From the IMG/VR virus record IMGVR_UViG_3300020576_003089, positions 11,233 through 75,232 of that record: a stretch of 64,000 bases of DNA, one strand, 5' to 3'. Position 1 is the first letter of the stretch. Each line of letters starts with the position of its first letter. The translations under genes were made by a program, and so were the position numbers. This document shows, one piece after another, positions 11,728 to 36,720 of this stretch. The notes beneath the pieces are model-generated. The model did no database searches. It worked only from the letters and a program-made list of their open reading frames with translations, and was not told where the DNA came from. The DNA comes from a virus. Lineage: Duplodnaviria > Caudoviricetes.

Positions 11728-12771
11728 TTATTTAATACCTGCTAATACTTGCATTCTTAAAAGACTATCATTAACTTCTAAAATTGGTTTTCTTTGAGAC
11801 ATTCCTGCTGGTTTTGAAGCAAATCCTAAGTTTTCTTTTATAGTTGATTTTTTATTAGGATTAACAGGATTTAATATATTAGAATTTAAAGATTCAAATA
11901 TTAATTTAACTTCTTTTACATTAGTAGCTCTATCAAATGATGAAATAACTTTTAATTTTTGTCCTTCATTTAAATTTTTAGCTTTAAATATTTTATTTAC
12001 ATAAAGTAATTTAGCGTTTAATAAATTAATTTCATTAATTTCAGTACGTAAAACTTTAACAGCTTTATATGCTTCGTTTAATTTTCTTTTTAATATTTTA
12101 TTTTCATTTAAACCAGAATTTGAAACATTTGATGGTTGAACCATATCATCTAATTCTCTTAATATTTCATCAATATCAAATTCATCTTCATCTTCACTAC
12201 CAGGCATTCCACCACCTAAATCATCTCCCATGTTATCCATTCCCATTTCTCCACCTAAATCGTCTCCCATTCCACCATCTAAATCATCTCCCATTCCTAA
12301 ATCGTCTCCCATTTCTCCACCTAAATCTTCAGTTCCAGTACTCATTTCTTGACTTACTACTGATTGAATAAGTGTTGTAAATTCTTCAACTGTTAAATTT
12401 GATAATTTTTCATCTGATTTATCATCTTCATCTTTCTCTGAACCTGTTTTTTCTTTAGGTTTAGATGGTTTTGATGGTGATTTATCATCTGATTTTTTAT
12501 CTGATTTTTTGTCTTTATCTTTGTCATCATTATCATCTTCACTTTCATTTAAATCGTCTTCTAATTCTTGTAGGATTGAAGAAAGATCTACATCTTCTTC
12601 TAATTCGTCATTTCCGAATTCATCCATTTCATTTAATTTTCTAGACATCATTTTTTCAAGTTTAGGTTTTAATGTTTCTTCCAAAGCATTTTTAGCATTT
12701 ATTAATGCAGTTTCACGAATCATTTTTGCATCAGCAATTGCATCTTGCAATACATTATTGTTTTTTGACAT
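11728..12771 (-). CDS. Prohead scaffold / core protein (T4 gp22-like)
   Basis: Directly upstream of capsid gene; acidic, low complexity, coiled-coil C-half; many [IL]xE sites; ends LLRMQVLAGIK. Confidence 0.85.
   Translation of the reverse strand: MSKNNNVLQDAIADAKMIRETALINAKNALEETLKPKLEKMMSRKLNEMDEFGNDELEEDVDLSSILQELEDDLNESEDDNDDKDKDKKSDKKSDDKSPSKPSKPKEKTGSEKDEDDKSDEKLSNLTVEEFTTLIQSVVSQEMSTGTEDLGGEMGDDLGMGDDLDGGMGDDLGGEMGMDNMGDDLGGGMPGSEDEDEFDIDEILRELDDMVQPSNVSNSGLNENKILKRKLNEAYKAVKVLRTEINEINLLNAKLLYVNKIFKAKNLNEGQKLKVISSFDRATNVKEVKLIFESLNSNILNPVNPNKKSTIKENLGFASKPAGMSQRKPILEVNDSLLRMQVLAGIK
12214..12327. repeat. Imperfect tandem repeats encoding GDDLGG(E)M
   Basis: Repeated cctaaatc[ag]tctcccat units inside the scaffold gene. 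Confidence 0.75.
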
Positions 12772-12903
12772 TTTTCCTTAATTATTTTTTTGTTGGAAAT
12801 AAGATTATTATAATCTTAATAGTATTTTTTTCTAAACCATATCATATGAGATAATGATATATTGAGGTTATTAATAAATATATAGCAAAGGTCAAAACCA
12901 TAC

Positions 12904-12932
12904 AAAAAGAAACGTTTCTTTTTAGAAACGTT
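12904..12932 (-). terminator. Putative terminator / palindrome downstream of protease and cassette
   Basis: Minus strand AAACGTTTCT-AAAA-AGAAACGTTT-CTTTTT. Confidence 0.55.
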
Positions 12933-13192
12933 TAATTATTCATTATTTGTTTTAATTCTCTGTAAATTTTTTCTAAATCTGATTGAGAAAATAAATCAAA
13001 ATCATATGTTTCTAACCAATCATCACTAATATTATATTTTTTTATATATGGTTTACATATTTTTAAATATGAATTCCAATGATTGTTCCACTTAGGTATT
13101 GATATTGAATTCCAATACTCTTTTACCTTTGCTAAATTTATATTAGGATTATTAATGTCGAGTTCAGATATAAGAGACATTAACTTTAACAT
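12932..13192 (-). CDS. LNE-leader cassette protein (SQxDL module family)
   Basis: MLKLMSLISELDINNP (start moved to 13192); ends FSQSDLEKIYRELKQ. Confidence 0.75.
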   Translation of the reverse strand: MLKLMSLISELDINNPNINLAKVKEYWNSISIPKWNNHWNSYLKICKPYIKKYNISDDWLETYDFDLFSQSDLEKIYRELKQIMNN

Positions 13193-13803
13193 AATGCACA
13201 CACACCGGTTTGGTTACAAATAATATCTGTAATTATATTATTAATTTTACTATATTTAGTATCTGAAATATGATTTAAATTTTCATTTAATTTATATTGA
13301 TAAGCATTATTTGTAGATGGGGTTGAAACTAAATCAGCACATAATAAATCAAAATCATCTTGTACTTCTACAGTATTTTCACTTACTTGTTTAACGGAAC
13401 CCATTCCTCTAGTTGATATACCTAATGGAATATTATTAGATGCAATTTCTTGTGCTATTCTGCCTGATGGAGTATTTAGTAATTCTATTTCAGCCATTAC
13501 ATTATTACCTTCCCACCATATTTTAGTAATTAAATGAGAAACATTATTTAAATTAATAACTGATGAATCGGGATGATCTAATTCACCTAATGCTGTTCTA
13601 TTTTTAACAGGGCCTTCATTATATTTATTAAATTCTCTTTCTAATATAGCTTTAGGATATTTACGACCATTTCCATTTTCAGCCTCTGCTTCCTGTATTT
13701 TACCTCTAACACGCATACGACCATTTCCTCCAGCTTTAGATTCATTTATAGTTGAATCTATACTAAAGTTAAATGGGATTGTGTCTATTAATAATTCTTT
13801 CAT
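13186..13803 (-). CDS. Prohead core protease (T4 gp21-like)
   Basis: NGNGRKYPK, ALGELDHP, VSHLI, NTPSG, GISTRGMGS, DLVSTPS. Confidence 0.95.
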   Translation of the reverse strand: MKELLIDTIPFNFSIDSTINESKAGGNGRMRVRGKIQEAEAENGNGRKYPKAILEREFNKYNEGPVKNRTALGELDHPDSSVINLNNVSHLITKIWWEGNNVMAEIELLNTPSGRIAQEIASNNIPLGISTRGMGSVKQVSENTVEVQDDFDLLCADLVSTPSTNNAYQYKLNENLNHISDTKYSKINNIITDIICNQTGVCALC

Positions 13804-15203
13804 TATTTTTTAAATAATTTTTTAATTCGTCTTTTTATTTCTTGCATCATTTCAGAAGTTATCTTAGGAGATAATACATAAAATGTTTTAACACCATCTT
13901 CACCTTCATTACTAGATTCTACTTTAATATTAAATTTTGTTTCTAATTCACTTAATATATGTGTAGGTAATTCATCCCAATAATCATATTTTAAATAAAC
14001 TTTTAGATTTTTTTCAGTTAATCTAATATTTTGACATTCATCTGGACATTTAGTATCTATAAAATTTTGTACTTGATTTAATATTCCTTCATTACTAACT
14101 TCTAGTTCATTTACATTTTGACCTTGTTCAGCTTTTCTTCTTTTATATTCTGCATTTGGGTCATTGATTGCTAATTCATTTAAACCCTTAACTTTTTTCA
14201 TTTTACCACCTGTCATATCCATTACACCTTTAATACCTTTAGCTCTAACAGCTTTATGTGTTAAATCTTTAACTTTAATTTTAGGTGTAGTTTCTTTTTT
14301 AGCTTTATTAGCAGATGCTTTATCCTTTTCTACACCTTTAGGATTTTCCATTTTGTTTAACTTATCTGTTGTATTAGACATTTTTTTATCCATTTCAACT
14401 GGTAAATCAGTGCGTTTTTTAACTTCTGGTTCTATTTTTTTAATATCTCCACCTGCTAATAATAATTTAGTATAATAATAAGAATGTTTACTTAAATTAG
14501 ATTTAACTTTTTTCATCCATTTTTCAATAGTTCCTGTTGGATCAATTGATCTTTCATAACGCATTCCTATTTGTTGTTCTAAAGGATCTACTTCGTCTTT
14601 ACCTTCAATACCATTATATTTTGAATCTGAACCATCCCATTTAGAACCCATTGGTTTAAATTTAGGTTCTTTTATTTCACGTAATGTTTCATTATCAAAA
14701 TCAATTAATTCTAAATCAGCTATATAGTCATCTTCAATATCATAATCATCATCTTTATCTATTTTCCATTCATAATCATCTTCATCTTCATCTTCTTCTG
14801 GATTTTCATTTAAATCTACCCAATTAAAATCATCTTCAACCATATCTTCATTACCATATATGTCTAAATTACGTAATATTTCTAAATCTTCTTCACTAGG
14901 TGCTGCAGGTTCAATTGAATCATTATCTATTCTTAAAGAACGTTTTGGTATTCTGAGATTATCAGTATCAAAATCTATAGGATCATCATGTTCTTCATCT
15001 CTTGGAATTGCTTCATCTAATTGACTTTCACAATTACATCCTTCAGCTATTAAACTTTTGGCTTTAAATATTTTAATTGTATCTTCGAATGTATTTACAT
15101 TAGTAATATAATTAGGAAAAGTTCTACGTGCTTCACGTAAAAAATCTTTCTTACTTATTTTACCTTCTTGTAAATCAATACATAAGTTTGTTATATTTTT
15201 CAT
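13803..15203 (-). CDS. Acidic putative prohead core/internal protein with DUF5661-like segment
   Basis: Very acidic; VDPLEQQIGMRYE...NLSKHSYYYTKL; internal LNELAINDP and VNELEVSN. Confidence 0.6.
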   Translation of the reverse strand: MKNITNLCIDLQEGKISKKDFLREARRTFPNYITNVNTFEDTIKIFKAKSLIAEGCNCESQLDEAIPRDEEHDDPIDFDTDNLRIPKRSLRIDNDSIEPAAPSEEDLEILRNLDIYGNEDMVEDDFNWVDLNENPEEDEDEDDYEWKIDKDDDYDIEDDYIADLELIDFDNETLREIKEPKFKPMGSKWDGSDSKYNGIEGKDEVDPLEQQIGMRYERSIDPTGTIEKWMKKVKSNLSKHSYYYTKLLLAGGDIKKIEPEVKKRTDLPVEMDKKMSNTTDKLNKMENPKGVEKDKASANKAKKETTPKIKVKDLTHKAVRAKGIKGVMDMTGGKMKKVKGLNELAINDPNAEYKRRKAEQGQNVNELEVSNEGILNQVQNFIDTKCPDECQNIRLTEKNLKVYLKYDYWDELPTHILSELETKFNIKVESSNEGEDGVKTFYVLSPKITSEMMQEIKRRIKKLFKK

Positions 15204-15883
15204 TAAATACTAATTTGTTTTTGAGGTGCTTGATTAAATTCGGCTACTTTAGCTTGCTCTTGAGCTGGGGTTTGTGTTTTACTAAAGCTTAATACTTTAG
15301 CCCATTCTACTGAATTAGCTTCACCTTCTTCTTCTCTACCTGTTAATTTAATATAAATACCATCTTTTTCCATTTTAATCTGATATTTTTTTCCATCTAA
15401 TGCTTTTTTAACTGCATCAAAACGTTCTTGGGGATTAACATTTTCGTTTAGCTTAATATTAGCTAATTGTTGCATTCTTTTAATTTCGTCTATTTGTTGT
15501 TTCATTTTTATTTTTATTTTATTAGCTAATTCATAATCTTCATCTTCAATAGCTTTTTCTAATTGGTTTTCTAAAGTTTCATTTTCATTTTCATCAAATC
15601 CTATAACAGGTTCATAGTTTTGAATTGAATCAAGTTCCCCAATATCGTCAAATTTATAATTATTATCTAAAAATATAATTATACCTTGATTAGTTCTTTT
15701 AATTTTTAACTTAACTGTACCACCAGGTTGTTGACTATATATAAATTTTTTATTAATAAAAACATCATCATATTCATTTACTTTAACAGCCCAAGGTACT
15801 ACATATCCATAATTATTTACAGGTAGGTTTTCTATATAATTATTCCTATTTAAATTATTACTGGGTAATTTAAGTTCTCTCAT
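15203..15883 (-). CDS. Multi-module protein with internal RMQQLA motif
   Basis: IDEIKRMQQLANIKLNE in the middle. Confidence 0.65.
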   Translation of the reverse strand: MRELKLPSNNLNRNNYIENLPVNNYGYVVPWAVKVNEYDDVFINKKFIYSQQPGGTVKLKIKRTNQGIIIFLDNNYKFDDIGELDSIQNYEPVIGFDENENETLENQLEKAIEDEDYELANKIKIKMKQQIDEIKRMQQLANIKLNENVNPQERFDAVKKALDGKKYQIKMEKDGIYIKLTGREEEGEANSVEWAKVLSFSKTQTPAQEQAKVAEFNQAPQKQISI

Positions 15884-15885: not shown

Positions 15886-17175
15886 TTATAATCCTTTGAT
15901 TTTATTGTTAAGTGTTTCCACTAATTCTTGTATTTTGTTAATTGATTGTTTTGTTTTATCCCAATATTGAACACCTTCTTCATTTTCACTTAATTCTTGT
16001 TTCATTCTATTCATATATTCAACAATTCTATCCACTTCTTGGAGTTTTGATTTAACTGTTTTGATACCTTTATGAAGCATTTCATTTTTACTTCTGAATT
16101 TTACTTCTTTTTTAAATTGACCATATGATGCTTCTTTTAATATCATGTTTTGAATAAGTTTATTAAGTTTTGATTCGTTTATATTATTACGTACTAACAA
16201 ATATGCTTTATATATTTGATTTTTATTATTTTCTAAATATGTTTTTAATTTTTGTATTGTACCATGTATGTTTCCTGATGTTAAATCTAAATTAAATTCT
16301 TTTGATATTAAACTAAATTTATCTGGATCTTTTACACATATTCTTAGTATATCTTGAATGCTTGGAATTTTATTTATACCTAATTCATTTATTGAATCTT
16401 GTTTAAATGAATTATAAGCACTGTTTCTCCAAGTCATTAAAATATTTCTAATATTTTTATCTTCAGGTAAAGCTGAAGCATTTGATACTTCAAACCATTT
16501 ATTTAATTCAACAGGTCTTTTATGTAGTATTGTATTTAATACTGAATCAGATGTGTTATTTGAAGCTCCAAATTCACCATGTTTATTAAGTAACATAGCT
16601 AAACGTTCAGCTGCTTTAGTTACTTCAGGTGTTTCTTCTATTTCGGATTCATATAAAGGAACATTCATGTCTTTATTCACATCAGTTTTGTTTGGATTTT
16701 GAATAACCCAACCATCACTTGATTTAGACATTATTAATGGTAAAGATAAAAAACCATTACCTAATACTTTTGTATTAGCAGCATATTTTTTAATTAAACC
16801 TCTAACTTGTTGTGGTACTCTTTCTTTTAAAAACAATGTTAATTTACCTAAACTTTGTTCTTTTGCAAATGAACTTCTACCTCTTTCAATATTATCTAAT
16901 GCTGTTTTAACTAATGGATCTATCATTAATATAGATTCACCTTTTGAATTAGTTGCTATTTTAAAATATATTTTTGGTTCTTGAGCAAATCCAAACCCAA
17001 TTGGTTTTAATAATGATTCTGGAAATTCAAATTCATTAGGAACAAAACGTCTGCCTTTTTTTAATGGTATAGCTTCTTTAAACAATTTTGGTGTTGCAGT
17101 AGTTTCTCCAGGACTAGTTATGTTCCCTTCTTCTTCAAGAATTTCTTTTAATATTTTTGCTATTATTTTACTCAT
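15886..17175 (-). CDS. Multi-module putative head-internal protein
   Basis: Amphipathic N-helix ending LKE/LEE; internal INELGINK and INESKLNKLIQNMILKEA; C-terminal coiled coil. Confidence 0.65.
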   Translation of the reverse strand: MSKIIAKILKEILEEEGNITSPGETTATPKLFKEAIPLKKGRRFVPNEFEFPESLLKPIGFGFAQEPKIYFKIATNSKGESILMIDPLVKTALDNIERGRSSFAKEQSLGKLTLFLKERVPQQVRGLIKKYAANTKVLGNGFLSLPLIMSKSSDGWVIQNPNKTDVNKDMNVPLYESEIEETPEVTKAAERLAMLLNKHGEFGASNNTSDSVLNTILHKRPVELNKWFEVSNASALPEDKNIRNILMTWRNSAYNSFKQDSINELGINKIPSIQDILRICVKDPDKFSLISKEFNLDLTSGNIHGTIQKLKTYLENNKNQIYKAYLLVRNNINESKLNKLIQNMILKEASYGQFKKEVKFRSKNEMLHKGIKTVKSKLQEVDRIVEYMNRMKQELSENEEGVQYWDKTKQSINKIQELVETLNNKIKGL

Positions 17176-18020
17176 TATTTTAAATTAGAAAGCTCTTCAA
17201 CAAGTTGATAATATTGTAATAATGATACCACATTTTCGTCTTTAACATTTTCTGTTTTTTCTAAAGGTTTAAGAAGATGAATTACCTCCGTTAACTTAAT
17301 AGAAGAAGTTTTATCATCTACCTTTTTAGAAAGTTTAAGTAATTCAGATTTTAGGTTTTTATAGTTTGAATTTACGAATTCTCTTAAATTAGAAACATTA
17401 CCTATGTTGTTAATATATTCTTTTAATATTGTTTTTTGATTATTATTTAAATTTTGATATTTGTCATTAAATTTTTCTAATAATGATCTATATGCTAATA
17501 TACGTGTATCCGAATCTAATTTTGAATATTCTTCATATATATCTTCACCTTTTTTAATATCTTTAGAACATATATGTTCTAATAATGTATTTTTATTTTC
17601 GATAAGAATATCGGGATTTATAAAATCAACAGAATTGTTAGATTCTATTAATATATAAGCAGCTGCATATTGAGGGTAATTATTTATTTTATTTTTGCAA
17701 AATAAATCTAAATTATAATTTTCTTTAATTTCTTTAATTAAATTATATTTTTCTCTACGTATAGTAGAACGATTTAATCGTTTTGATAATAATATTATAT
17801 TATCAATAACGGAGTTAGCTTTAATTTCAGATAAGTTTTTATTATTTATTAATGATTGATATAATTTATGTTCTTTAGCTAATTCAGTTTTAGAAAAATA
17901 TTTTTTAATTATATTAACAGCTGGTGAATCATTACCTGATATGGTATCGTTGGTTACTTGTCGAATTAATAATTCGAATAGTATTGCCGTATTTTTATAC
18001 TTTGAATTTTTTATTTTCAT
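17175..18020 (-). CDS. Portal-adjacent helical protein (possible prohead assembly factor)
   Basis: 281-aa helical ORF directly after portal; function not identified. Confidence 0.6.
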   Translation of the reverse strand: MKIKNSKYKNTAILFELLIRQVTNDTISGNDSPAVNIIKKYFSKTELAKEHKLYQSLINNKNLSEIKANSVIDNIILLSKRLNRSTIRREKYNLIKEIKENYNLDLFCKNKINNYPQYAAAYILIESNNSVDFINPDILIENKNTLLEHICSKDIKKGEDIYEEYSKLDSDTRILAYRSLLEKFNDKYQNLNNNQKTILKEYINNIGNVSNLREFVNSNYKNLKSELLKLSKKVDDKTSSIKLTEVIHLLKPLEKTENVKDENVVSLLQYYQLVEELSNLK

Positions 18021-21561: not shown

Positions 21562-21591
21562 ATATATAAATATATACAAGAAATTTTAAGC

Positions 21592-21641: not shown

Positions 21642-21998
21642 TTATAAGTTAGTTCCAGTTGGTTCATAATAATAAAGATCTTTTCCATTTATATTTATTT
21701 TACTCCAATCAGCTAAATCAGCATCTTGAATATCTTGTTCTGTAGGTTCATGATCTATTAAACAAATTGAATCTACTGCTTCACCTATCCAAACTTGACC
21801 ATTTTCACCTTGAAATACTTCTTCATATCTCATATCCTCAGGATATTCATCTTCACCTATTATTTCATTTACAATTTTTTTTCTATTCAGTTTTATGAAA
21901 TTTAATAAATCTCTAGGATCATTAATAGTTATTTCGTTTAATGGACGAATACCTGCTAATTGCTGCATTCTATGTATTTCGTTTATTTGTTTTTTCAT
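21642..21998 (-). CDS. Cassette protein with RMQQLAGI and LNE leader
   Basis: MKKQINEIHRMQQLAGIRPLNEITINDP. Confidence 0.75.
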   Translation of the reverse strand: MKKQINEIHRMQQLAGIRPLNEITINDPRDLLNFIKLNRKKIVNEIIGEDEYPEDMRYEEVFQGENGQVWIGEAVDSICLIDHEPTEQDIQDADLADWSKININGKDLYYYEPTGTNL

Positions 21999-22000
21999 TT

Positions 22001-22369
22001 TTATTGTTTTATAATTAAAAATACAGCTAATACACCTAATAATGCTGAAGTTGATGTACCTAATATACGTCCTTTAATTTTAAGTAGTTTTTGTTTATTA
22101 ATTAATTTTTTGTTTATTTTTTCTAAATTATTAATTTCTTGCTTATAATTTATTTCTTTAGATTCATATAAATCAATTATTTGATCTTTAACAATAACTT
22201 TATTATTAGTTAATATTAAAGCATTATTTAAATATTTAACTTCATTAATTAATGAATCTTTTTGAATTAATTCAACTATAACTTTTTTAGCTATTGAATC
22301 TGGTAAATATGTTTGTGCTTTTGAATTTAAAAACATTAACATAGTTAGTAATGTTAATATATATTTCAT
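22001..22369 (-). CDS. Secreted/membrane coiled-coil protein, possibly spanin-like
   Basis: Signal peptide ending SKA|QT, coiled coil, C-terminal hydrophobic helix. Confidence 0.5.
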   Translation of the reverse strand: MKYILTLLTMLMFLNSKAQTYLPDSIAKKVIVELIQKDSLINEVKYLNNALILTNNKVIVKDQIIDLYESKEINYKQEINNLEKINKKLINKQKLLKIKGRILGTSTSALLGVLAVFLIIKQ

Positions 22370-23102: not shown

Positions 23103-23106
23103 TTAT

Positions 23107-23739
23107 TTAAATTATACTCCAAGTACCTGGTTCTGTTAAATTTTCTCTTAATTTATCTATTACTTCTTGTTTTTTTAACGCTGGAATAACATTTCCTGAT
23201 TTATTTAATTTAAAAATATTTAAAAATTCATTACCATCTTCATGTGATAAAGTTGGGTAAGCATATAAAGTATATCCATCGTTTTCTATTTTTATACATC
23301 CCATATCATGGGTTTTACTATAATCAACCAGATAATTAGCTAATTGAGGTCCATTATCAATATCATTAGTATCACCATTATTAATATTATAATATCCTGG
23401 TTTTATTTCCTTATATAAATCAACATCCCAACCATTATCATCAAATTCTTCTATTTTTACTTCTAAACTATTAAAACTATTTATATTAAAATTATCATAC
23501 CATTTATTAAATTTATTTAAATTAAATTTATCTAAATCAAACCCACTTATTATATCAGAAATATAATCATAATATCCTGCTCCTCCTGATCCTACTCCTC
23601 CTAATAATCCTTCATCAAATGAAATTCCAATTTCACCTAATTTAGTACCAATATCTGATAAATCATTTGGATCATTTAAGTCTAATTCATTTAATTTAAT
23701 TCCTGCAAGTTGTTGCATTCTGCGTATTTCGTTCATCAT
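23107..23739 (-). CDS. Cassette protein with RMQQLAGI and LNE leader
   Basis: MMNEIRRMQQLAGIKLNELDLNDP. Confidence 0.75.
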   Translation of the reverse strand: MMNEIRRMQQLAGIKLNELDLNDPNDLSDIGTKLGEIGISFDEGLLGGVGSGGAGYYDYISDIISGFDLDKFNLNKFNKWYDNFNINSFNSLEVKIEEFDDNGWDVDLYKEIKPGYYNINNGDTNDIDNGPQLANYLVDYSKTHDMGCIKIENDGYTLYAYPTLSHEDGNEFLNIFKLNKSGNVIPALKKQEVIDKLRENLTEPGTWSII

Positions 23740-23740
23740 G

Positions 23741-24835
23741 TTATTTTATTATACCTGCTCTTAATTTAAATTTTCTTATTAATGATTCATCTAATGTATC
23801 TTCAATATCATCTTCATCAAATTCAAATTCATCTTCAAAACTAAATTTATCATTATCTGATGTATTAGATTGTTTATAAGGTATATCACCTACTGCTTTA
23901 ATTATTTTATTATATAAGTTTTTTAAATGTCCTGGTAGTTTATGTTCTAACATTTCAATAATTGCACGTTGTACATCTAATTCTTCTTGTTTAATTAAAC
24001 TTGCATATTCATCTACTAAAACATCAACTTTTGAACCTGAATTCAAAACACGATTTCTTTCTTGAGAATAATAATTATCACTTACATCATCTTCATTAAT
24101 TGATTTTTTTACTTTAACACGAGACTGTAATTGACTATTAATTATTTTTTGAAGTAATCTATCATGTGTAAAGAAAAATTCTGCTGCTTTACTTCTAGCA
24201 TTAGAAGGAGCTATATATTGGTGTTTTGGTAAATCTGGTTCTACTTCATCGGGTTCGTCAAATTCATCCTTATCTTTACCTTTTGAAACATTAAAATATT
24301 GAGACAATTCATTATCTGAATCTCTTTCATAATCGTTTTCATCTTCTAAGTCTTTCTTCTCATTATCAAATCTATTTCTAGGTTTTGTTAAGGCTTCACC
24401 TGAAATAGGTTCAATTATTCCATATGGTTCTAGTACATCTTTTACAACTGGATTAAACATTTGTTGTCTACCAAATTTAGGATCACCTTTCATTTCCCCA
24501 TATGCTTTAGCTATATCTAATATTTGCCATTCTGGATTTTCACCTGCATAATCCAATATAAATTTAACAGTTTTACTATTTTGTACTTTATCAGGAGCTG
24601 CTAATAATTTTGCTCTCCAATCGTCTGCTAATTTATATTTTGAAGGGATTCTAGCCATTTCATCTAAATCTGCTTCTTTTAATTTGCGTCCTTGTGTTGT
24701 AGTTGCTGTTTTTATATTTGGATCGGTACGTAATGAATTTGAATCTGGTTCATTATTTACATATGTGGTTTTGCCCGTTTTATCGGTAACCATTGTTCCT
24801 TCTACTAATTTAGATAATATATCTAGTGTTCTCAT
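23741..24835 (-). CDS. Acidic putative head-internal protein with C-terminal scaffold-like tail
   Basis: Ends LDESLIRKFKLRAGIIK; internal LDEMAR and INEDD. Confidence 0.6.
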   Translation of the reverse strand: MRTLDILSKLVEGTMVTDKTGKTTYVNNEPDSNSLRTDPNIKTATTTQGRKLKEADLDEMARIPSKYKLADDWRAKLLAAPDKVQNSKTVKFILDYAGENPEWQILDIAKAYGEMKGDPKFGRQQMFNPVVKDVLEPYGIIEPISGEALTKPRNRFDNEKKDLEDENDYERDSDNELSQYFNVSKGKDKDEFDEPDEVEPDLPKHQYIAPSNARSKAAEFFFTHDRLLQKIINSQLQSRVKVKKSINEDDVSDNYYSQERNRVLNSGSKVDVLVDEYASLIKQEELDVQRAIIEMLEHKLPGHLKNLYNKIIKAVGDIPYKQSNTSDNDKFSFEDEFEFDEDDIEDTLDESLIRKFKLRAGIIK

Positions 24836-27969: not shown

Positions 27970-28368
27970 TTATTTATAATTGTTTTTAAAATATAAAGTA
28001 ATATAAGGAGTATTTAATTTATATTTAAATCTAAATTTATCAGCTGCTTTTTTAAATATTTCTATTAAATCATCCTCATAATCCTTATATATCCAATGAA
28101 TAAAGTGAATCCCACTAATTTTTATTCTTCTCATAGAATTACCATTTTTTAATTTATATATATCATTATAATAATCTATTTTACCATAAGTGTTTTGATG
28201 ACCATTTAAACTTTGAATAAATTTATTTAATTGTTGAGGTGGAATAGGAAATTCTTTTAATATTTCATTTGTACAATAAATTAAAAATAATTTTAATTTA
28301 TCTTTATCATAAATATCAGAATTAGGATTAATTACTTCTAACTCATTCAGTAATTCTAATAATTTCAT
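27970..28368 (-). CDS. LNE-leader cassette protein
   Basis: MKLLELLNELEVINP. Confidence 0.75.
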   Translation of the reverse strand: MKLLELLNELEVINPNSDIYDKDKLKLFLIYCTNEILKEFPIPPQQLNKFIQSLNGHQNTYGKIDYYNDIYKLKNGNSMRRIKISGIHFIHWIYKDYEDDLIEIFKKAADKFRFKYKLNTPYITLYFKNNYK

Positions 28369-29472: not shown

Positions 29473-30525
29473 TTAATCCAGATCTTCTAAACCTGTGTCA
29501 TCTTTTTTTAAATCATTATTAATATCATTCATAATATTCTGAGCCCAACGTTTTTGATTTGGTGTCAATTTATTATTAATAGCATTTTCAATAAATATTA
29601 AAAATTCTTCATCTTGCATTTTATATATTTCAACAAATAATAATTCTCTTACTCTAGGATCGTCATAATTTGATTCATTATATAAATTACTTACTGCATC
29701 ATAAATAAATTTACCATATTGCATATCATGAGGTTCATTACTTAATTGATCTACGTTTCTTACTACATTTTGATTTTGTTCTTTATCTGTTCCAAATCCT
29801 TGTAATGATAGTAATTCATATAAACCCTTAACAATTTCATGAACTAACATAGGAAAACATATAGCTCGTGCTACAATTGTTATTTTAATTGGTTCTGGTT
29901 CATCAAATCTATTTTTTTCTTCTTCATCTTCTCCTACTTTAACATAAACTTTACCACCTTCAGTTTTTCTACCTAGACTTAACATTGCTAGCATCATTGC
30001 TATTGCATTTTCATCATCAAATATTCCAAAAACTCTTTTAATTAAACCATTATAATCATTAACTAAATTTTGATCTAATTTATCCAAATTATCTCTAAAT
30101 AATAGAAATGCAAACGCTCCTCTAATTGAGGAACCTTGAGTAATAGCATTTATTACTCTACGTTTTTTATCTGATGGTAATTCTTCCCATGATTCCTTAG
30201 GTGGAATTTTAGGTGGTTCAGGCATACCTGCATTAACATCAGTTACTATTTTAGCATCAATTTCAACTCCAGCATATTTTATAATTGGATATGCTTGATG
30301 AACTATATCTACAGCTGTTTGTTCTAAACTAGGAATATGTGACTTTTCAAAAACCATTACTTTTTGTAAAAGAGCAACCATATCACGTTGAGAACTATTA
30401 AGATTAATAGTTTTACCTAAATCAATTAAACTCTGTTTAGATTGACCCTTTAATAAATTTAATGTTTCTGGTTTAAATATTTTCTCATAATTAACTTCTT
30501 CTTTAATTATTTTTTTATTTCTCAT
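29473..30525 (-). CDS. Hypothetical helical protein
   Basis: 350 aa; KRRVINAITQG, FPMLVHEIVKG. Confidence 0.65.
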   Translation of the reverse strand: MRNKKIIKEEVNYEKIFKPETLNLLKGQSKQSLIDLGKTINLNSSQRDMVALLQKVMVFEKSHIPSLEQTAVDIVHQAYPIIKYAGVEIDAKIVTDVNAGMPEPPKIPPKESWEELPSDKKRRVINAITQGSSIRGAFAFLLFRDNLDKLDQNLVNDYNGLIKRVFGIFDDENAIAMMLAMLSLGRKTEGGKVYVKVGEDEEEKNRFDEPEPIKITIVARAICFPMLVHEIVKGLYELLSLQGFGTDKEQNQNVVRNVDQLSNEPHDMQYGKFIYDAVSNLYNESNYDDPRVRELLFVEIYKMQDEEFLIFIENAINNKLTPNQKRWAQNIMNDINNDLKKDDTGLEDLD

Positions 30526-30944
30526 TATTTAGTTAGTGATTTAAAACGATTTTCAATTTTGTTAATTATTTCTTTCTCTTTACCTGCCTTAGGTGCAGTT
30601 TCAGGAGCAGTTTTTGGTGGAGTTAATGGTCTACGTGGGCCTGGTTTAGTTGAGGGTTTACCAGGTGCTATTGATGGACTAGGACTAGTACCAGGTGATG
30701 GTGCTGGAGCTGGGTTATTTTCATTCATATGATCACTAGTGTATTTAGCTAAAATAGATGTGCATATATTAGCAAATTCATCCATTTTGATACCATATTC
30801 ACCTTTAAGTGATGTAAATAAACCTTTTAAACCATTTAAAACTTCTGCTTTTACTTCGTTTGGATCGGGAGCTGCTTCTAAGTTTTCTTTTATTACTTGT
30901 TTAACTATATTCTTAATTGAATTAGCTAATTTTTTTTTATCCAT
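30525..30944 (-). CDS. Protein with amphipathic IKE leader and Pro-rich linker
   Basis: IKNIVKQVIKENLE; MNENNPAPAPSPGTSPSPS. Confidence 0.65.
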   Translation of the reverse strand: MDKKKLANSIKNIVKQVIKENLEAAPDPNEVKAEVLNGLKGLFTSLKGEYGIKMDEFANICTSILAKYTSDHMNENNPAPAPSPGTSPSPSIAPGKPSTKPGPRRPLTPPKTAPETAPKAGKEKEIINKIENRFKSLTK

Positions 30945-30986: not shown

Positions 30987-31079
30987 TTACTTATTGTATT
31001 TCCAAATATAACCATATGCTGTTTTTTGTAATCCAATCAAACATTTTCGTATAGTTTCACCACTAGTATTAGCTAATTC
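30987..31079 (-). pseudogene. C-terminal (NUMOD1-type) remnant of a homing endonuclease
   Basis: Hand translation ELANTSGETIRKCLIGLQKTAYGYIWKYNK*, no start codon; resembles the tails of 31982.. (CQGKRQSTLGYKWKY) and 45249.. (KGKQKQAGGFIWKY). Confidence 0.75.
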
Positions 31080-32001
31080 TAAGAATCGAAGAAGCCACAT
31101 AAATTCCATGTGCACCACTTACTGTTATACCTCTTGCTGATAGAGCATCTCCAACAAAATAAACATTTGGGTAATCAATTAATGATAAGTTATTATAATT
31201 TACTAATGGTTCAGGTGATAAATATTTTACTTCGGGTATATATATTCCCCAATCATCACCAAATTCAAATATTTTATTCATTTGATCAATAAAATTAAGA
31301 ATATAATCAGCATATTCTTTTCCTAATGATTGTTCTAAAGCTGCTTGTCCATTTCCAATTTCAAAACAAGATACTCTATTTCCTTCTGATGTTAATGATG
31401 GTTTACGAGATGGAGAAAAATAATATCCTACTCTTTTATCTTTTCTTAACCATGAATCGTCAGAGAAATGTGATTGTATTGCTTGACATTTACTTACAGC
31501 TTCTCTACACCACTCAAATGGATTTTCAATACCTTTAATCTCCATTAATATACCAAAATTGGTCATATCATTTCTAAATTCTTCACCTTTCTTAGCATGA
31601 CCATTATATGAAATATCACCATATGTCTCTTCTACTGCAACATAAGCGGCGTTATTATTAGTGCAAAATGTACGAATACTTACACTATTTTCTTCTTGTT
31701 TTTGTTTTTCAATTTGGTCTAAATCTAATCCTGTAGTGTTATTGAATTCTTTTTTATATTCTTCTCTAGTCTTACCTTCAGGGTATTCAAATTTTAAAGG
31801 GTAATGTTTTTGGTATAATTTAAAGTCATAACTAATATCAATTAATTTTTGAAAATATTTTTGTGGGCTTTCAAATCTCACCCCAATCTGGGCTGCGCGA
31901 GCTTCAGTAGGGAGATTTTTTTCTTTCATAATTTTTTGAGTTAAATCCATACCAGCTTTACCAGTACCATAAATTAAAGTATCAAATTTTATTTTTCTCA
32001 T
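31069..32001 (-). CDS. FAD-dependent oxidoreductase (COG2509-like), C-terminal piece
   Basis: DTLIYGTGKAG, QIGVRFE, IRTFCTNN, YFVGDALSARGITVSGAHG (second FAD-binding motif); lacks the N-terminal GxGxxG. Confidence 0.85.
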   Translation of the reverse strand: MRKIKFDTLIYGTGKAGMDLTQKIMKEKNLPTEARAAQIGVRFESPQKYFQKLIDISYDFKLYQKHYPLKFEYPEGKTREEYKKEFNNTTGLDLDQIEKQKQEENSVSIRTFCTNNNAAYVAVEETYGDISYNGHAKKGEEFRNDMTNFGILMEIKGIENPFEWCREAVSKCQAIQSHFSDDSWLRKDKRVGYYFSPSRKPSLTSEGNRVSCFEIGNGQAALEQSLGKEYADYILNFIDQMNKIFEFGDDWGIYIPEVKYLSPEPLVNYNNLSLIDYPNVYFVGDALSARGITVSGAHGIYVASSILRIS

Positions 32002-33450: not shown

Positions 33451-33918
33451 TTAAACTATTTTTAAAATATATTTTGGTTCTAAATACCCTGGTTTATTAG
33501 AAATAATTCTTTCTTCTGCTAATTCAGATCCTCCTAAAGAATCAATTTTAACTCCTACTTGCTTAAACCATTCATCACTTGGTTTATCTATATATGTAGA
33601 AGCTTGGATAGGAACAATTTTATATTTTTCTGATATTTTATTACCATCTAAAACAATTAGCGTTTTATGTTTCCAATTTTGTTTTTTTCTTGTAGTAGAT
33701 ATAAAATATTCATTTGATATTTCTTCTTGAGGTTCACTAAATTTTAATCCTTTATCTAAAATATTTTTTATATTTTTAATATTAGTATAATGATATAATA
33801 ATCCAATTTGTTTTCCTTCATTTAAGAAATCATCATCTTTATTAATTTTGTTTTCTGTAGTAATCCCTGCTAGTTTTTGTAGTCTTTTGATAATTCCTTC
33901 GTTTAGTTGTTTTTTCAT
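33451..33918 (-). CDS. ADP-ribosyltransferase-fold-like protein with scaffold-mimic leader
   Basis: KRLQKLAGI...FLNEGKQIGLLYHYTNIKNIKNILDKGL...FISTTR...IVLDG...EERII. Confidence 0.55.
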   Translation of the reverse strand: MKKQLNEGIIKRLQKLAGITTENKINKDDDFLNEGKQIGLLYHYTNIKNIKNILDKGLKFSEPQEEISNEYFISTTRKKQNWKHKTLIVLDGNKISEKYKIVPIQASTYIDKPSDEWFKQVGVKIDSLGGSELAEERIISNKPGYLEPKYILKIV

Positions 33919-33921: not shown

Positions 33922-34386
33922 TTATTTTTGAATTTCAAATTTAATTTTTTTATTATTTAGTAATTTGATGAGATTTTCATCTGGTTTATGGAGGATAGCT
34001 TTAGTAATAGTTGTTATAGGAATATTACCTTGTATAGAAATAGTTCCTCCTTCGTAACTTCTATTAGCTTGGGTCATTTTATTTTTTATCTTATTGCTAT
34101 CTATCACAAATGTAACATCCAAATCTCCTAATCCATAAAAATTATTATTATCATGTGGAAAATCAGAAACATATACAAATTTACCATAATTTGGATCTTC
34201 ATACCAATCTTCAGGATTTTGGTTTGTTGATTTTAATATGTTTTCATAAGTTTTAATTTCACCACTTTTCAAAATGTTTAAAGCATTTTGTATATCTGTT
34301 GAATGATAAACTAAATTACCTTTTTGGTATTCTTTATCTTCTTTAAGTATTCCAGCTAATTTTTGCCATCTTTTAAATTCTTTCAT
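33922..34386 (-). CDS. ADP-ribosyltransferase-fold-like protein with scaffold-mimic leader
   Basis: KRWQKLAGILKED...LVYHSTDIQNALNILKSGEI...FVYVS...VTFVID. Confidence 0.5.
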   Translation of the reverse strand: MKEFKRWQKLAGILKEDKEYQKGNLVYHSTDIQNALNILKSGEIKTYENILKSTNQNPEDWYEDPNYGKFVYVSDFPHDNNNFYGLGDLDVTFVIDSNKIKNKMTQANRSYEGGTISIQGNIPITTITKAILHKPDENLIKLLNNKKIKFEIQK

Positions 34387-34392: not shown

Positions 34393-34911
34393 TTAATCTT
34401 TAATTATTATTTCATTGTTTTCAAAATCTACATCTTCTACCTCAGTTTCCCATTCAAATTTAACACCTTTATCTAATAAATACTCATACCAAGCAACTGC
34501 TATAAGAGAAAGATAATTGCTTCCTATATGCCAAACAGGAAATAATCTTAATCCAAAATACGGTTTAATGAATTCTGGTTCATCTATTGGATTGGAGCAG
34601 AATATTTCTTCTGGTTTAGGATGGAAACGTTTGAAATTATTGATTACTTGATCCATTAACTCCATAGCTTTTTCTTCACCACAGTATTTACTTAATTGTC
34701 CTCCAATTGCAGTGTGATATGTTAATTTACCGTCGCTCCATCCACCTGCACCTAACATACCTTCCATTACTTCTTCAGGTTTACGTTTGTAAGGATCATT
34801 TCCTTTATCTATAATGGTAATTAATTCACCTGGATATCCGTTATCTACTAATTTAGTAGCAGCATTTATACCTGCTACTCCAGCTCCTACTATTACTATT
34901 TTTTTATTCAT
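34393..34911 (-). CDS. FAD-dependent oxidoreductase (COG2509-like), N-terminal piece
   Basis: KIVIVGAGVAGINAA Rossmann motif, GMLGAGGWSDGKL, ends KFEWETEVEDVDFENNEIIIKD*. Confidence 0.88.
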   Translation of the reverse strand: MNKKIVIVGAGVAGINAATKLVDNGYPGELITIIDKGNDPYKRKPEEVMEGMLGAGGWSDGKLTYHTAIGGQLSKYCGEEKAMELMDQVINNFKRFHPKPEEIFCSNPIDEPEFIKPYFGLRLFPVWHIGSNYLSLIAVAWYEYLLDKGVKFEWETEVEDVDFENNEIIIKD

Positions 34912-35138
34912 TTATTGTTTAAATTTAAGAGATTTTGTTCAAGTTCTTTTATTACTTCTTCATATTGTTTACTTGTAATATCCATTGCTTCATCTGTTTG
35001 TCCTTTATCAGCAAAATCTTTACATAATTTAGCTAAATCAATTGCTGCTATTAAATTATCTTTTTTAGATAACATTCCTTTATATGGATTATGGTTTGAT
35101 GATTTCAACATCAATTCTATTATTTCTTTATTTTTCAT
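34908..35138 (-). CDS. Hypothetical protein
   Basis: 76-aa ORF with ATGA overlaps. Confidence 0.6.
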   Translation of the reverse strand: MKNKEIIELMLKSSNHNPYKGMLSKKDNLIAAIDLAKLCKDFADKGQTDEAMDITSKQYEEVIKELEQNLLNLNNK

Positions 35139-35490: not shown

Positions 35491-35506
35491 TCTATAAAAG
35501 TAAGAA

Positions 35507-35519
35507 AAGAATTTTGACT
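35507..35519 (-). promoter_or_regulatory. AGTCAAAATTCTT element upstream of denV
   Basis: Exact copy, followed by TACTTTTA before the ATG. Confidence 0.6.
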
Positions 35520-35572
35520 TTTAACAACCTGTTTCTCGTACTATTATTTTTGACCTTTAATTTCTGTAATTT

Positions 35573-35849
35573 TCATTCTGAACCTGGACCTTCCATCCAT
35601 TCATTTTCATCTATTAATGATAAATTGTCAGATATAACTAAACCTCCACAATCATCTTCACTTCTCGTTATAATTATTTTAATATAATCTTCTCCATCAT
35701 CATTTTCTTCATCTCGGATTTGCCAATCTAATTCATCACTATTAGGATTTAAAATTCCAAAACCTGTTTTATTCATAATGAGTTCAAGATTTAATCTAAC
35801 CCAACTTTCACTAAATCCTGGTTTATTTACTTCTAATTCGTTTAATCAT
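35573..35849 (-). pseudogene. Frameshifted LNE-leader cassette
   Basis: ATG ATT AAA at 35849 is out of frame with TTA AAC GAA TTA GAA GTA AAT AAA CCA (LNELEVNKP), which runs in frame into ORF 35573..35776. Confidence 0.65.
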
Positions 35850-36720
35850 TTAAATCAGGTTCTGTCCATTTAATTATAATACTACCATATTCATCCGTTG
35901 AAACTTTAACTCTTTCTATAAGAGCTTCATGATCATTAAAAATTAATTTCTTTCCTTTTAAAAAGTTAAAGATTTTATTATATTCTTCTATTTGTTCATC
36001 ATCATCCCATAAATGATCTTCATTAAACTCATATTCAATATTTTTATCTTCTCCCATCATGTTATCTTCATAATATACATCTATAACGTTTCGGATATAT
36101 TTTTCAACTTCAGAACGAGTTAAAGGGTGATTTACTTCTAATTCATCTATTAGATCTTCGTCATCTTCCCATTTTTCATCATCATCATCATCGTCATCCC
36201 AATCATCTGATATTTCTAGCATTATTTCATATGCTCTTTTCAAAGCTAAATTTATTGAAGAATATTTTATAGGTTCTTTTATTGCGTTTCCAAAAGCATA
36301 ATATGCTTCTATTGTAAATCCATTTTCTTTTTTAATAATTTTAACATCATCTGTATGATTTTCATCATGACCATCCATAGGTGCTGAAAACCAATAAACA
36401 ATATCTTCTTTAATATCTTCAGGTTCTAATATAATTTCATCCCATCCTTCAGGAATTTTAACATTAGGATTACTTATTTCTAATTCGTTTAGTTGAATAC
36501 ATGCTAATTGTTGCATTCTTTTGATTTCATCAATTCCTGCTTTTTCTAAACGTGAATAATATTTAGGATCTTCTGCTAAATGATCTAATGCTATTTCTTT
36601 AGCAATTATTGAACTATTGGTATGTTCCATTTCATGTTTTATACCTTTTTTAAGTTCATTGTGGTCTACATTTTTAGGATTTAATTTATCTCCTTTTCCA
36701 CCTCGTAATTTATTTAACAT
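35842..36720 (-). CDS. DUF5661-like domain plus LNE-linked modules (polyprotein)
   Basis: GGKGDK...ELKKGIKHEMEH...EIALDHLAEDPKYYSRL; IDEIKRMQQLACIQLNELEISNP; LIDELEVNHP. Confidence 0.7.
   Translation of the reverse strand: MLNKLRGGKGDKLNPKNVDHNELKKGIKHEMEHTNSSIIAKEIALDHLAEDPKYYSRLEKAGIDEIKRMQQLACIQLNELEISNPNVKIPEGWDEIILEPEDIKEDIVYWFSAPMDGHDENHTDDVKIIKKENGFTIEAYYAFGNAIKEPIKYSSINLALKRAYEIMLEISDDWDDDDDDDEKWEDDEDLIDELEVNHPLTRSEVEKYIRNVIDVYYEDNMMGEDKNIEYEFNEDHLWDDDEQIEEYNKIFNFLKGKKLIFNDHEALIERVKVSTDEYGSIIIKWTEPDLND

What the first reader, a model, noticed from the sequence alone, without database searches (positions are those of the whole stretch)
11728..36720. Second targeting motif RMQQLAGI copies the scaffold C-terminus
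Seen: the scaffold ends ...SLLRMQVLAGIK*. The same helix occurs in seven other ORFs: EIKRMQQLANIKLNE (15203), EIHRMQQLAGIRPLNE (21642), EIRRMQQLAGIKLNE (23107), C-terminal LIRKFKLRAGIIK* (23741), IIKRLQKLAGITTE (33451), FKRWQKLAGILKE (33922) and EIKRMQQLACIQLNE (35842). N-terminal and internal copies are followed within a few residues by a predicted xxE cleavage site. Established: scaffold C-terminal helices bind coat protein in P22 and herpesviruses. Inference: cargo proteins use a scaffold-mimicking coat-binding tag to enter the prohead, and the tag is then clipped off.
Basis: partly seen in the sequence, partly recalled or inferred. Interest (0 to 1): 0.86.

Follow-up and report, generated by a model that had tools for sequence, protein, structure and literature searches.

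The report
Scaffold-tail peptide reused as cargo tag
In this uncultured T4-like phage, seven unrelated proteins carry the short helix that ends the head-scaffolding protein, usually followed by a head-protease cutting site, so it is probably a clip-off label that loads them into the capsid; no experiment shows this yet.

Summary
The 75-kb contig holds exactly eight copies of R-[MWF]-Q-x-L-A-G-I, all in real minus-strand ORFs at the sites named. A motif profile scores them 14.7-25.4 bits against 4.3 for the next best hit, and 200 shuffles gave none.

One copy is the extreme C-terminus of the gp22-like scaffold, between the S77 protease and gp23-like capsid genes. That tail is kept in 145 of 150 diverged scaffold homologues and in most of 80 related viral contigs. 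T4 gp22 lacks it.

The other copies are a portable module. The carriers share nothing else. In an unbiased scan of viral contigs, 35 of 112 exact copies are N-terminal tags, and 33 of those are followed by [ILVMT]-x-E. In relatives, tagged ORFs often lie between the protease and scaffold genes. Orthologues of one cargo, an ADP-ribosyltransferase fold, swap this tag for two other leaders at the same L-x-E junction.

A protease-removed prohead-targeting tag is the best reading. Binding to the capsid protein, packaging and cleavage are all untested.

The scan has already found this on other genomes (e1-5750153, e1-5705091, e1-5740886, e1-5784616). This contig is an expanded case: seven tags, against none to two in the relatives checked.

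The parts
11728..12771 (-). gp22-like prohead scaffolding protein (347 aa, acidic)
   Evidence: It lies between the S77 protease and gp23-like capsid genes, as in the T4 order 21-22-23. Its C-terminal 160 aa have 2936 homologous clusters. Direct similarity to T4 gp22 is not significant.
11731..11769 (-). Scaffold C-terminal tail copy of the motif, the last 13 residues
   Evidence: HMM score 17.5 bits. The tail motif is present in 145 of 150 homologues. An I-x-E site lies 7 residues upstream of the invariant Arg.
15452..15490 (-). Internal copy in ORF 15203-15883 (226 aa), followed by K-L-N-E
   Evidence: 24.0 bits. The ORF lies between the portal and protease genes.
21945..21983 (-). N-terminal tag of ORF 21642-21998 (118 aa), with the invariant Arg at residue 10
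   Evidence: 25.1 bits. It has the same layout as the tags in relatives.
23695..23733 (-). N-terminal tag of ORF 23107-23739 (210 aa), followed by the L-N-E-L-D-L-N-D-P junction
   Evidence: 25.4 bits. Its cargo homologues P0177, P0194 and P0251 are also tagged.
23747..23785 (-). Degenerate C-terminal copy ending ORF 23741-24835 (364 aa, acidic C-terminal region)
   Evidence: 14.7 bits, the weakest of the eight. No homologue was found in the fetched loci or the Atlas.
33856..33894 (-). N-terminal tag of ORF 33451-33918 (155 aa), an ADP-ribosyltransferase-fold cargo
   Evidence: 19.2 bits. AF2 predicts the tag as an isolated helix (residues 3-16), then a disordered linker, then a domain with Z 11.0 to the Tpt1/KptA ART lobe. 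Orthologues swap the leader.
34345..34383 (-). N-terminal tag of ORF 33922-34386 (154 aa), followed by L-K-E
   Evidence: 21.3 bits. Similarity to ORF 33451 extends a little beyond the tag.
36493..36531 (-). Internal copy in ORF 35842-36720 (292 aa), after a DUF5661 domain and followed by the L-N-E-L-E-I-S-N-P junction
   Evidence: 24.5 bits. DUF5661 covers residues 16-60, E 3e-12.
13186..13803 (-). Prohead protease, T4 gp21 type (Peptidase_S77)
   Evidence: Pfam PF03420, E 2.4e-27; PHROG 207, E 1.3e-52.
10074..11690 (-). Major capsid protein, gp23 type, with an N-terminal propeptide and an inferred cut after E59
   Evidence: Pfam Gp23, E 3.9e-74. BLASTP aligns L-I-V-E59 with T4 F-L-T-E65. E59 is invariant in 40 of 40 relatives.

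Best explanation
The motif is a short amphipathic helix with a small hydrophobic 'hook' (phi-x-R-[MWF]-Q-x-L-A-G-I-[IK]-K). In this far-T4 clade it forms the conserved C-terminal docking tail of the gp22-like scaffolding protein. Copies at the N-terminus, or at internal module boundaries, of unrelated proteins act as prohead-targeting propeptides. They attach the cargo to whatever receptor holds the scaffold tail. That receptor is most likely the inner face or N-arm of the gp23-like capsid protein; the scaffold core is the alternative. After assembly the gp21-type S77 protease cuts at the [ILV]-x-E site directly after the tag, and at I-x-E just before the scaffold tail. This frees the mature cargo inside the head, to be delivered with the DNA. 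Shown here: the shared motif, its conservation, its modularity, the flanking site pattern, the head-module position in relatives, and leader swapping on orthologous cargo. Inferred: binding, the identity of the receptor, cleavage, packaging and delivery.
For: (1) The contig holds eight copies and no near-misses.
(2) The scaffold tail motif is present in 145 of 150 homologues that are no more than 50% identical to each other, always 0-5 residues from the C-terminus. It is also present in immuto and Mel-JY01.
(3) Tails (n=68) and tags (n=17) conserve the same positions: R, M/W/F, Q, L, A, G, I.
(4) In a DNA-pattern scan that ends at the motif, 112 unique copies comprised 74 tails, 35 N-terminal tags and 3 internal copies. 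Of the 35 N-terminal tags, 33 are followed by [ILVMT]-x-E.
(5) A profile search found 2167 tagged proteins at E<=10. Most have the Arg at about residue 10, and some are multi-tag polyproteins.
(6) In relatives, tagged ORFs lie between the protease and scaffold genes (L010, L016, L029, L042, L061, L069) or next to the portal gene (L023). A 798-aa polyprotein with two internal tags sits between the S77 protease and the scaffold.
(7) The genome encodes an S77 protease. The capsid-protein site aligned with the T4 gp23 cut is [LI]-[VI]-x-E, invariant in 40 of 40 relatives. The scaffold has I-x-E 7 residues before the tail.
(8) Orthologues of cargo 33451 carry three interchangeable leaders, all ending L-x-E just before the same mature start.
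(9) AF2 predicts the tag as a separate helix on a disordered linker. The cargo domain has an ART fold (Z 11.0), which recalls the packaged, gp21-processed ART Alt of T4 (PMC9026906).
(10) Precedents: T4 CTS propeptides load diverse proteins into the core (PMC3012670, PMC9026906). The 80alpha scaffold binds the capsid protein through a C-terminal helix plus an R-I-I-K hook, which SaPI1 CpmB copies (PMC5644958; 80alpha tail read).
Against: There is no proteomic, structural or genetic evidence for any member, and only two cultured phages (immuto, Mel-JY01) carry the tail. T4 itself shows no such mimicry: the gp22 tail and the CTS are unrelated. Tags do not co-vary with the tail of the same genome. 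L029 and L069 have variant scaffold tails but canonical tags. About 27 of 94 minus-strand ORFs in the contig carry this tag or the M-I-K-L leader. That would be a very large cargo list for a phage of about 150 kb, and it leaves room for a function other than packaging. The carriers are mostly acidic, unlike the basic internal proteins of T4. The 23741 copy is degenerate.
Confidence: 0.55

Rival explanations
1. The tag has the same targeting role but a different receptor. The helix binds the scaffolding core itself (tail to scaffold body, or tail to tail) or another core component such as the portal or protease, as is assumed for the T4 CTS, and does not bind the capsid protein.
For: The T4 literature describes CTS propeptides as having affinity for the core (PMC9026906; PMC3012670). 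Nothing here identifies the receptor. The covariation scan between tail and capsid-protein columns gave only noise.
Against: An extreme C-terminal helix plus hook is the capsid-binding element in 80alpha (PMC5644958), and in P22 and herpesviruses by established knowledge. By T4 stoichiometry, only the capsid protein is abundant enough to hold every scaffold tail plus several cargo species; this is an inference.
Confidence: 0.2
2. The helix is a substrate-recognition (exosite) element for the S77 protease. It marks proteins to be cut next to it and plays no part in loading.
For: Every non-C-terminal copy is next to an [ILV]-x-E site, and the scaffold tail has I-x-E 7 residues upstream.
Against: The capsid protein is inferred to be cut at an aligned site that has no such helix nearby. 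In orthologues the M-I-K-L and K-S-E-L-K leaders replace the tag at the same junction, so cutting there does not seem to need this helix. T4 gp21 needs only the short site (PMC9026906).
Confidence: 0.07
3. The shared leader is mainly a product of cassette shuffling. Recombination at conserved 5' coding sequences spreads small genes, and the peptide has some function unrelated to the head, such as an oligomerisation helix or an expression element. On this view the resemblance to the scaffold tail reflects one old exchange.
For: Leaders are swapped between orthologues. Nearly a third of the ORFs in the contig carry one of the leaders. Many tagged genes lie outside the head module, for example next to gp32.
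Against: The same positions are conserved in tails and tags across contigs whose capsid proteins are only 53-76% identical to the window's, and codons vary synonymously between the window's own copies. Internal and C-terminal copies exist, so this is not a translation-start effect. The tag is tightly coupled to the protease-type site.
Confidence: 0.1

Closest known systems
Phage T4 capsid targeting sequence (CTS) on the internal proteins IPI-III, and the propeptides of Alt, removed by gp21
   Same: Both are short N-terminal propeptides on otherwise unrelated proteins. Both end in the prohead-protease site ([LI]-x-E), and the genome has a gp21-type S77 protease. The cargo includes an ART-fold enzyme, as Alt is. 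Sources: PMC3012670, PMC9026906.
   Different: There is no sequence similarity to the T4 CTS, whose sequence was verified in the T4 genome. The tag is about 20 residues with a conserved 8-residue core, where the CTS is 10 residues. Here the tag is a copy of the scaffold's own C-terminal tail, which is not the case in T4. Copies also occur internally and at C-termini.
Staphylococcus phage 80alpha scaffold C-terminal helix-and-hook (R-I-I-K) and its copy in SaPI1 CpmB
   Same: A short amphipathic helix followed by a hydrophobic/basic hook at the extreme C-terminus of the scaffold. The 80alpha tail ends ...Q-K-R-I-I-K-N, and the consensus here ends ...Q-K-L-A-G-I-I-K. A second protein carries the same peptide to use the same site on the capsid protein (PMC5644958).
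   Different: CpmB is an alternative scaffold encoded by a satellite, not cargo. Its copy is C-terminal and is not described as being clipped off. Here the copies are mostly N-terminal propeptides on many enzyme-like proteins of the phage itself. Binding to the capsid protein is unproven here.
Encapsulin cargo-loading peptides, and engineered P22 scaffold-fusion encapsulation
   Same: A short terminal peptide directs unrelated cargo into an HK97-fold shell. The P22 nanotechnology fuses cargo to the scaffold's coat-binding end (PMC9962691). This is an analogy of mechanism only.
   Different: The consensus peptides and shells differ, and those systems have no protease removal. This is not a membership claim.
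Processed head and inner-body proteins of phiKZ/SPN3US-type giant phages
   Same: Many head proteins carry propeptides that the prohead protease removes (PMC5694885, PMC7411985).
   Different: Those phages use a different cleavage motif and different phage groups are involved. No scaffold-tail mimicry is described there.

Membership tests
T4-type capsid targeting propeptide (CTS) system | A short shared N-terminal peptide on otherwise unrelated proteins | tested here: met
   The carriers share only the tag. Of 144 motif occurrences in the top 120 profile hits, 111 are N-terminal. 35 N-terminal tags were found in the unbiased scan.
T4-type capsid targeting propeptide (CTS) system | The peptide ends in the consensus site of the prohead protease ([LI]-x-E) | tested here: met
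   33 of 35 N-terminal tags are followed by [ILVMT]-x-E. The same pattern occurs at the capsid-protein site aligned with the T4 gp23 cut, and before the scaffold tail. Actual cleavage has not been observed.
T4-type capsid targeting propeptide (CTS) system | The genome encodes a gp21-type (S77) prohead protease within a gp20-gp21-gp22-gp23 head module | tested here: met
   Pfam PF03420, E 2.4e-27; Gp23, E 3.9e-74; gene order.
T4-type capsid targeting propeptide (CTS) system | Sequence similarity to the T4 CTS (M-K-T-Y-Q-E-F-I-A-E) | tested here: not met
   The T4 CTS was verified in the T4 genome and has no resemblance to the R-M-Q-x-L-A-G-I core. The tag may work like a CTS, but it is not homologous to it.
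T4-type capsid targeting propeptide (CTS) system | Cargo is found in virions with the propeptide removed; the tag is sufficient to package a reporter | not testable with these tools
   This needs virion proteomics or reporter fusions in a cultured member such as immuto.
Scaffold C-terminal capsid-binding helix (80alpha SP / CpmB, P22 gp8 type) | A conserved short helix (plus hook) at the extreme C-terminus of the scaffolding protein | tested here: met
   145 of 150 homologues have the motif 0-5 residues from the end. AF2 predicts the homologous tag region as helical.
Scaffold C-terminal capsid-binding helix (80alpha SP / CpmB, P22 gp8 type) | A second protein carries a homologous peptide | tested here: met
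   Seven further carriers in the window, and the same conservation profile in tails and tags.
Scaffold C-terminal capsid-binding helix (80alpha SP / CpmB, P22 gp8 type) | The peptide binds the major capsid protein at a defined site | not testable with these tools
   There is no structure or binding assay; see Tried and rejected for the co-fold attempt.
ADP-ribosyltransferase fold (cargo 33451 only) | ART-fold core with a conserved H...[ST]-T-T...E-E-R pattern | tested here: met
   VIA Z 11.0, rmsd 1.9 A over 81 residues, to the Tpt1/KptA NAD lobe. All other top rows are ARTs such as DarT, pertussis S1 and scabin. Conserved columns are listed. Activity and target are untested.

The most novel reading that the evidence does not exclude
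The tag docks cargo on the capsid-protein site that normally holds the scaffold tail. Cargo and scaffold would then compete for a fixed number of sites, and the protease would release both. On this reading the lineage has expanded the system so that about a quarter or more of the genes in this contig (7 with this tag, about 20 with the interchangeable M-I-K-L leader) encode proteins delivered with the DNA. That would be an injected arsenal that includes an ART-fold enzyme. It would also give a concrete, testable receptor for CTS-type loading, which is still undefined in T4.
Probability: 0.3. Interest if true: 0.78.

Novelty: new variant of a known kind. Interest (0 to 1): 0.62.

Why it matters
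How T4-type heads select the proteins they package is known only as 'a short N-terminal CTS with affinity for the core'. No receptor has been defined. Here the tag is recognisably the scaffold's own conserved docking tail, which points to a specific receptor that can be tested. The tag is abundant in environmental T4-like phages: thousands of tagged proteins, and about one third of exact motif copies in a viral-contig scan. The carriers would therefore form a catalogue of candidate injected effectors, among them an ADP-ribosyltransferase-fold protein. The peptide could also serve as a natural, portable label for loading foreign proteins into capsids. None of this is proven, and the scan has already reported the same phenomenon on other genomes, so this window adds an expanded example and some new comparative evidence, not a first sighting.

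Tried and rejected
1. Co-fold of the capsid protein (alignment A3) with the last 46 residues of the scaffold (alignment A2): score 0.00, no verdict. This is not evidence either way.
2. Mutual-information scan between scaffold-tail columns and capsid-protein columns in 76 paired loci: the top pairs were scattered and there was no phylogenetic control, so it is inconclusive.
3. Co-variation of tag and tail within genomes: the core is nearly invariant, and tags prefer M whatever the tail uses (M, W or F), so the test could not discriminate.
4. PHROG, Pfam and PADLOC scans of the carriers gave nothing except DUF5661 in ORF 35842 and a weak DarT hit for ORF 33451.
5. Word-index search with residues 1-40 of ORF 23107: only the self-hit. 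tblastn of a 27-residue tag against cultured phages: no match, but it also missed the known immuto tag, so it is not sensitive enough.
6. Literature search for the motif strings: 0 papers. Papers that mention immuto are on other topics, and there were no papers on Mel-JY01.
7. BLASTP of the scaffold against T4 gp22: not significant, E 0.31. The scaffold assignment therefore rests on synteny, composition and the large homologue family.
8. Search for a T4 late-promoter motif upstream of tagged genes: no clear pattern.
9. ESM Atlas search for ORF 23741: nothing useful.
10. Chance and a DNA-level repeat were both rejected.
11. An attempt to search the whole 169-kb metagenome record behind L096 for the scaffold tail failed because that record is not held.
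Full report
WHAT THE WINDOW IS

The window is 64 kb of a 75,232-bp viral contig with about 25% G+C. Nearly all genes are on the minus strand.

The finding's span contains a T4-type head module:
- large terminase, 19969-21579
- portal, 18051-19946
- four ORFs of unknown function
- an S77 (gp21-type) prohead protease, 13186-13803 (Pfam E 2.4e-27)
- an acidic 347-aa protein, 11728-12771
- a gp23-type major capsid protein, 10074-11690 (Pfam E 3.9e-74)

I call the 347-aa protein the scaffold for three reasons. It sits where T4 gene 22 sits. It has an acidic, helical composition. Its C-terminal 160 residues belong to a family of 2936 clusters. Direct similarity to T4 gp22 is not significant.

The nearest deposited phages by capsid-protein identity are Flavobacterium phage immuto (57%), Microcystis phage Mel-JY01 (48%), an uncultured 484-kb phage record (LR756508), and Rhodothermus phage RM378 (37%). 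No near-identical DNA is present among deposited phages.

THE OBSERVATION

A 13-residue HMM built from the eight scores them at 14.7-25.4 bits across the whole contig, and the next best segment in any frame scores 4.3 bits. In 200 shuffles of the contig the pattern never occurred. Codons differ synonymously between copies, so the repeat is maintained at the peptide level.

Positions of the copies:
- C-terminal in the scaffold and in ORF 23741. The 23741 copy is the weakest and has R where the others have L.
- N-terminal in ORFs 21642, 23107, 33451 and 33922.
- Internal in ORF 15203 (residue 136 of 226) and ORF 35842 (residue 68 of 292, after a DUF5661 domain).

All six non-C-terminal copies are followed within a few residues by [ILT]-x-E. 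Three continue into the L-N-E-L-[ED]-[IL]-x-[ND]-P junction that marks the other leader family of this contig, and a fourth (ORF 15203) stops at L-N-E. Apart from the tag region the carriers are unrelated to each other. Only ORFs 33451 and 33922 show similarity that extends slightly beyond the tag.

IS THE SCAFFOLD TAIL CONSERVED?

Yes, very strongly. The immuto and Mel-JY01 scaffolds end with the same motif. In 80 related IMG/VR loci fetched through the capsid protein (53-76% identity), the ORF just upstream of the capsid gene ends with the motif in most of them.

Among the best 150 representatives of the scaffold family, each representing a cluster formed at 50% identity, 145 carry R-[MWF]-Q-x-L-A-[GN]-[IL] within 0-5 residues of the C-terminus. 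T4 gp22 has no such tail. Among deposited phages only immuto, Mel-JY01 and LR756508 have this scaffold type.

In the scaffold alignment an I-x-E triplet (I in 49 of 50 sequences, E in 47 of 50) lies seven residues before the invariant Arg of the tail.

ARE THE TAGS A GENERAL FEATURE?

Yes. Relatives have small ORFs that begin M-K-x-Q-[IL]-N-E-[IV]-[KR]-R-M-Q-x-L-A-G-[IL]-[IL]-x-E, with the Arg at residue 10. Immuto has one such ORF, gene 188.

Tails (n=68) and tags (n=17) conserve the same positions.

A profile of 15 tags, searched against 5.8 billion proteins, gave 2167 hits at E<=10 among the 8000 candidates scored. In the top 120 there were 111 N-terminal and 33 internal copies. These include polyproteins with two or three tags, and a few fusions to an NT5C nucleotidase domain.

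That profile included the residues after the motif, so I also ran an unbiased DNA-pattern scan of IMG/VR that ends at the motif's last residue. Of the 35 N-terminal tags, 33 are followed by [ILVMT]-x-E within five residues.

The relatives checked genome-wide or nearly so, 135-190 kb in length, have the tail plus no or one further copy of the searched form, and the 80 loci around the capsid gene hold at most two tags. The seven extra copies in this 75-kb contig are therefore an expansion.

CONTEXT

In relatives the tagged ORFs often lie inside the head module:
- between the protease and scaffold genes in L010, L016 (two ORFs), L029, L042, L061 (two ORFs) and L069
- near the portal in L023
- just before the terminase in L013

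A 798-aa protein with two internal tags occupies the protease-scaffold interval on another contig. It begins with the other leader type, M-I-K-L-L-D-I-L-E-E.

Other tagged genes sit at conserved positions elsewhere, for example just upstream of gp32, or near a flavoprotein gene upstream of the terminase. In the window, ORF 15203 lies between the portal and protease genes, and ORFs 21642-23741 lie directly upstream of the terminase.

PROTEASE LOGIC

BLASTP aligns the window's capsid-protein segment L-I-V-E59 with T4 gp23 F-L-T-E65. By established knowledge, E65 is the gp21 maturation cut. In 40 relatives this site is [LI]-[VI]-x-E with E invariant.

The tags, the scaffold tail and the capsid protein therefore all show the pattern that T4 gp21 cuts. 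Cleavage itself is inferred.

LEADER SWAPPING

This is the most informative new result. Homologues of the mature part of ORF 33451 (36 proteins at E<=0.001) all share the same mature start (G-K-Q-V-G-x-L-Y-H-Y-T) but carry one of three leaders:
- the tag studied here (2 proteins)
- the 10-residue M-I-K-L-I-D-L-L-N-E leader (the majority)
- an M-K-K-S-E-L-K-Q-...-L-N-E leader

Each leader ends in L-x-E immediately before the mature start. The leaders therefore behave as exchangeable propeptides joined at the putative cleavage site.

AF2 predicts the tag as an isolated helix (residues 3-16), then a disordered linker, then a confident domain. That domain matches the NAD-binding ART lobe of Tpt1/KptA (Z 11.0, rmsd 1.9 A over 81 residues), followed by DarT and the toxin ARTs. 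This confirms the ART-like reading of another first-stage note. It also recalls T4 Alt, an ART that is packaged and processed by gp21 (PMC9026906).

COMPARISON WITH KNOWN SYSTEMS

T4 internal proteins carry 10-19-residue N-terminal propeptides (CTS). These load diverse proteins into the scaffolding core and are removed by gp21 (PMC3012670, PMC9026906). The T4 CTS sequence is present twice in the T4 genome. It resembles neither the tag studied here nor the T4 gp22 tail. This system therefore works like a CTS but is not homologous to it.

The closest structural precedent for the tail is phage 80alpha. Its scaffold's last 16 residues form an 11-residue amphipathic helix plus a 5-residue hook containing R-I-I-K. 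They bind beside the N-arm helix of the capsid protein, and the satellite protein CpmB copies this element to occupy the same site (PMC5644958). The 80alpha tail, read from the genome, ends Q-K-R-I-I-K-N. The consensus here ends Q-K-L-A-G-I-I-K. This resemblance is a lead, not a test.

WHAT REMAINS OPEN

The receptor is unknown: it could be the capsid protein, the scaffold core or another core component. Cleavage, presence in virions and delivery are also untested.

Three points count against a simple picture:
- Tags do not track variant scaffold tails in L029 and L069.
- About 27 of 94 minus-strand ORFs carry one of the leaders, which would be a very large cargo list.
- Most carriers are acidic.

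The co-fold attempt gave no verdict and the covariation scan was noise. Neither is evidence.

VERDICT

- Observation: confirmed.
- Interpretation: partly supported.
- Best explanation (0.55): a prohead-targeting, protease-removed tag that copies the scaffold's docking tail. Within it, I put capsid-protein binding specifically at about 0.3-0.4 overall.
- Novelty: a new variant of a known kind, namely CTS-type loading combined with CpmB-type mimicry of the scaffold tail. I found no paper describing it.

The same scan has already reported this on other genomes (e1-5750153, e1-5705091, e1-5740886, e1-5784616). Those notes are not independent evidence. This window contributes the largest expansion seen here, the leader-swap evidence, the unbiased census and the 80alpha comparison.

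Noticed in passing
window 33451-33918 (-): The mature domain (residues 36-155) has an ADP-ribosyltransferase fold closest to the NAD lobe of Tpt1/KptA (Z 11.0), followed by DarT. It lacks the N-terminal RNA-binding lobe of Tpt1. Conserved columns are H43, S74-T75-T76-R77 and E135-E136-R137.
   Followed up: yes
whole contig; e.g. window 7530-8111, 27970-28368, 37239-37523, 46386-46724, 53796-54368, 56208-56606, 60218-61744: About 20 ORFs begin with M-I-K-L-x-Q-L-[IL]-N-E-L-[EG]-I-N-N-P. The 900-aa ORF 40781-43483 has six internal copies of that junction. This leader is interchangeable with the scaffold-tail tag on orthologous cargo.
   Followed up: partly
window 10074-11690 (-), N-terminus: The capsid-protein N-terminus (M-x-x-x-Q-L-L-E-S; L6 invariant, L7 and E8 at least 90% conserved in 40 relatives) loosely resembles the M-I-K-L-x-Q-L-L-N-E leader. 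If this is real, one leader type would copy the capsid propeptide end and the other the scaffold tail. It rests on a 4-5 residue resemblance only and was not tested.
   Followed up: no
window 23739-23746: The degenerate C-terminal copy of ORF 23741 ends one base before the start codon of ORF 23107, which opens with a canonical N-terminal tag. The two copies are adjacent across a gene boundary, which could be a split polyprotein.
   Followed up: no
window 35842-36720 (-), residues 16-60; L095 7522-9378; L098 2200-4185: The DUF5661 domain contains an H-E-x-x-H string in the window protein. In some relatives DUF5661 sits in a 618-661-aa protein, directly upstream of the S77 protease gene in L095 but elsewhere in L098. 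It may be a head-associated domain.
   Followed up: partly
L001 18731-19972 (immuto26A_204): The scaffolding protein of the cultured phage immuto is annotated as 'DNA polymerase phi-like protein', probably because of its acidic low-complexity region. It ends with the scaffold tail motif.
   Followed up: yes
window 31069-32001 and 34393-34911 (-): Relatives have one intact 462-466-aa gene with faint Pyr_redox (flavoprotein) Pfam hits at the syntenic place, next to a tagged small ORF. This fits the other note that the window's gene is split by an insert carrying an endonuclease-like ORF and three leader-bearing genes.
   Followed up: partly
window, upstream of 17175-18020, the portal, the terminase, 30525-30944 and 37239-37523: A T-A-T-T-T-A-T-A-like string recurs 10-30 bases upstream of several start codons and could be a promoter element. 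No statistics were done.
   Followed up: no
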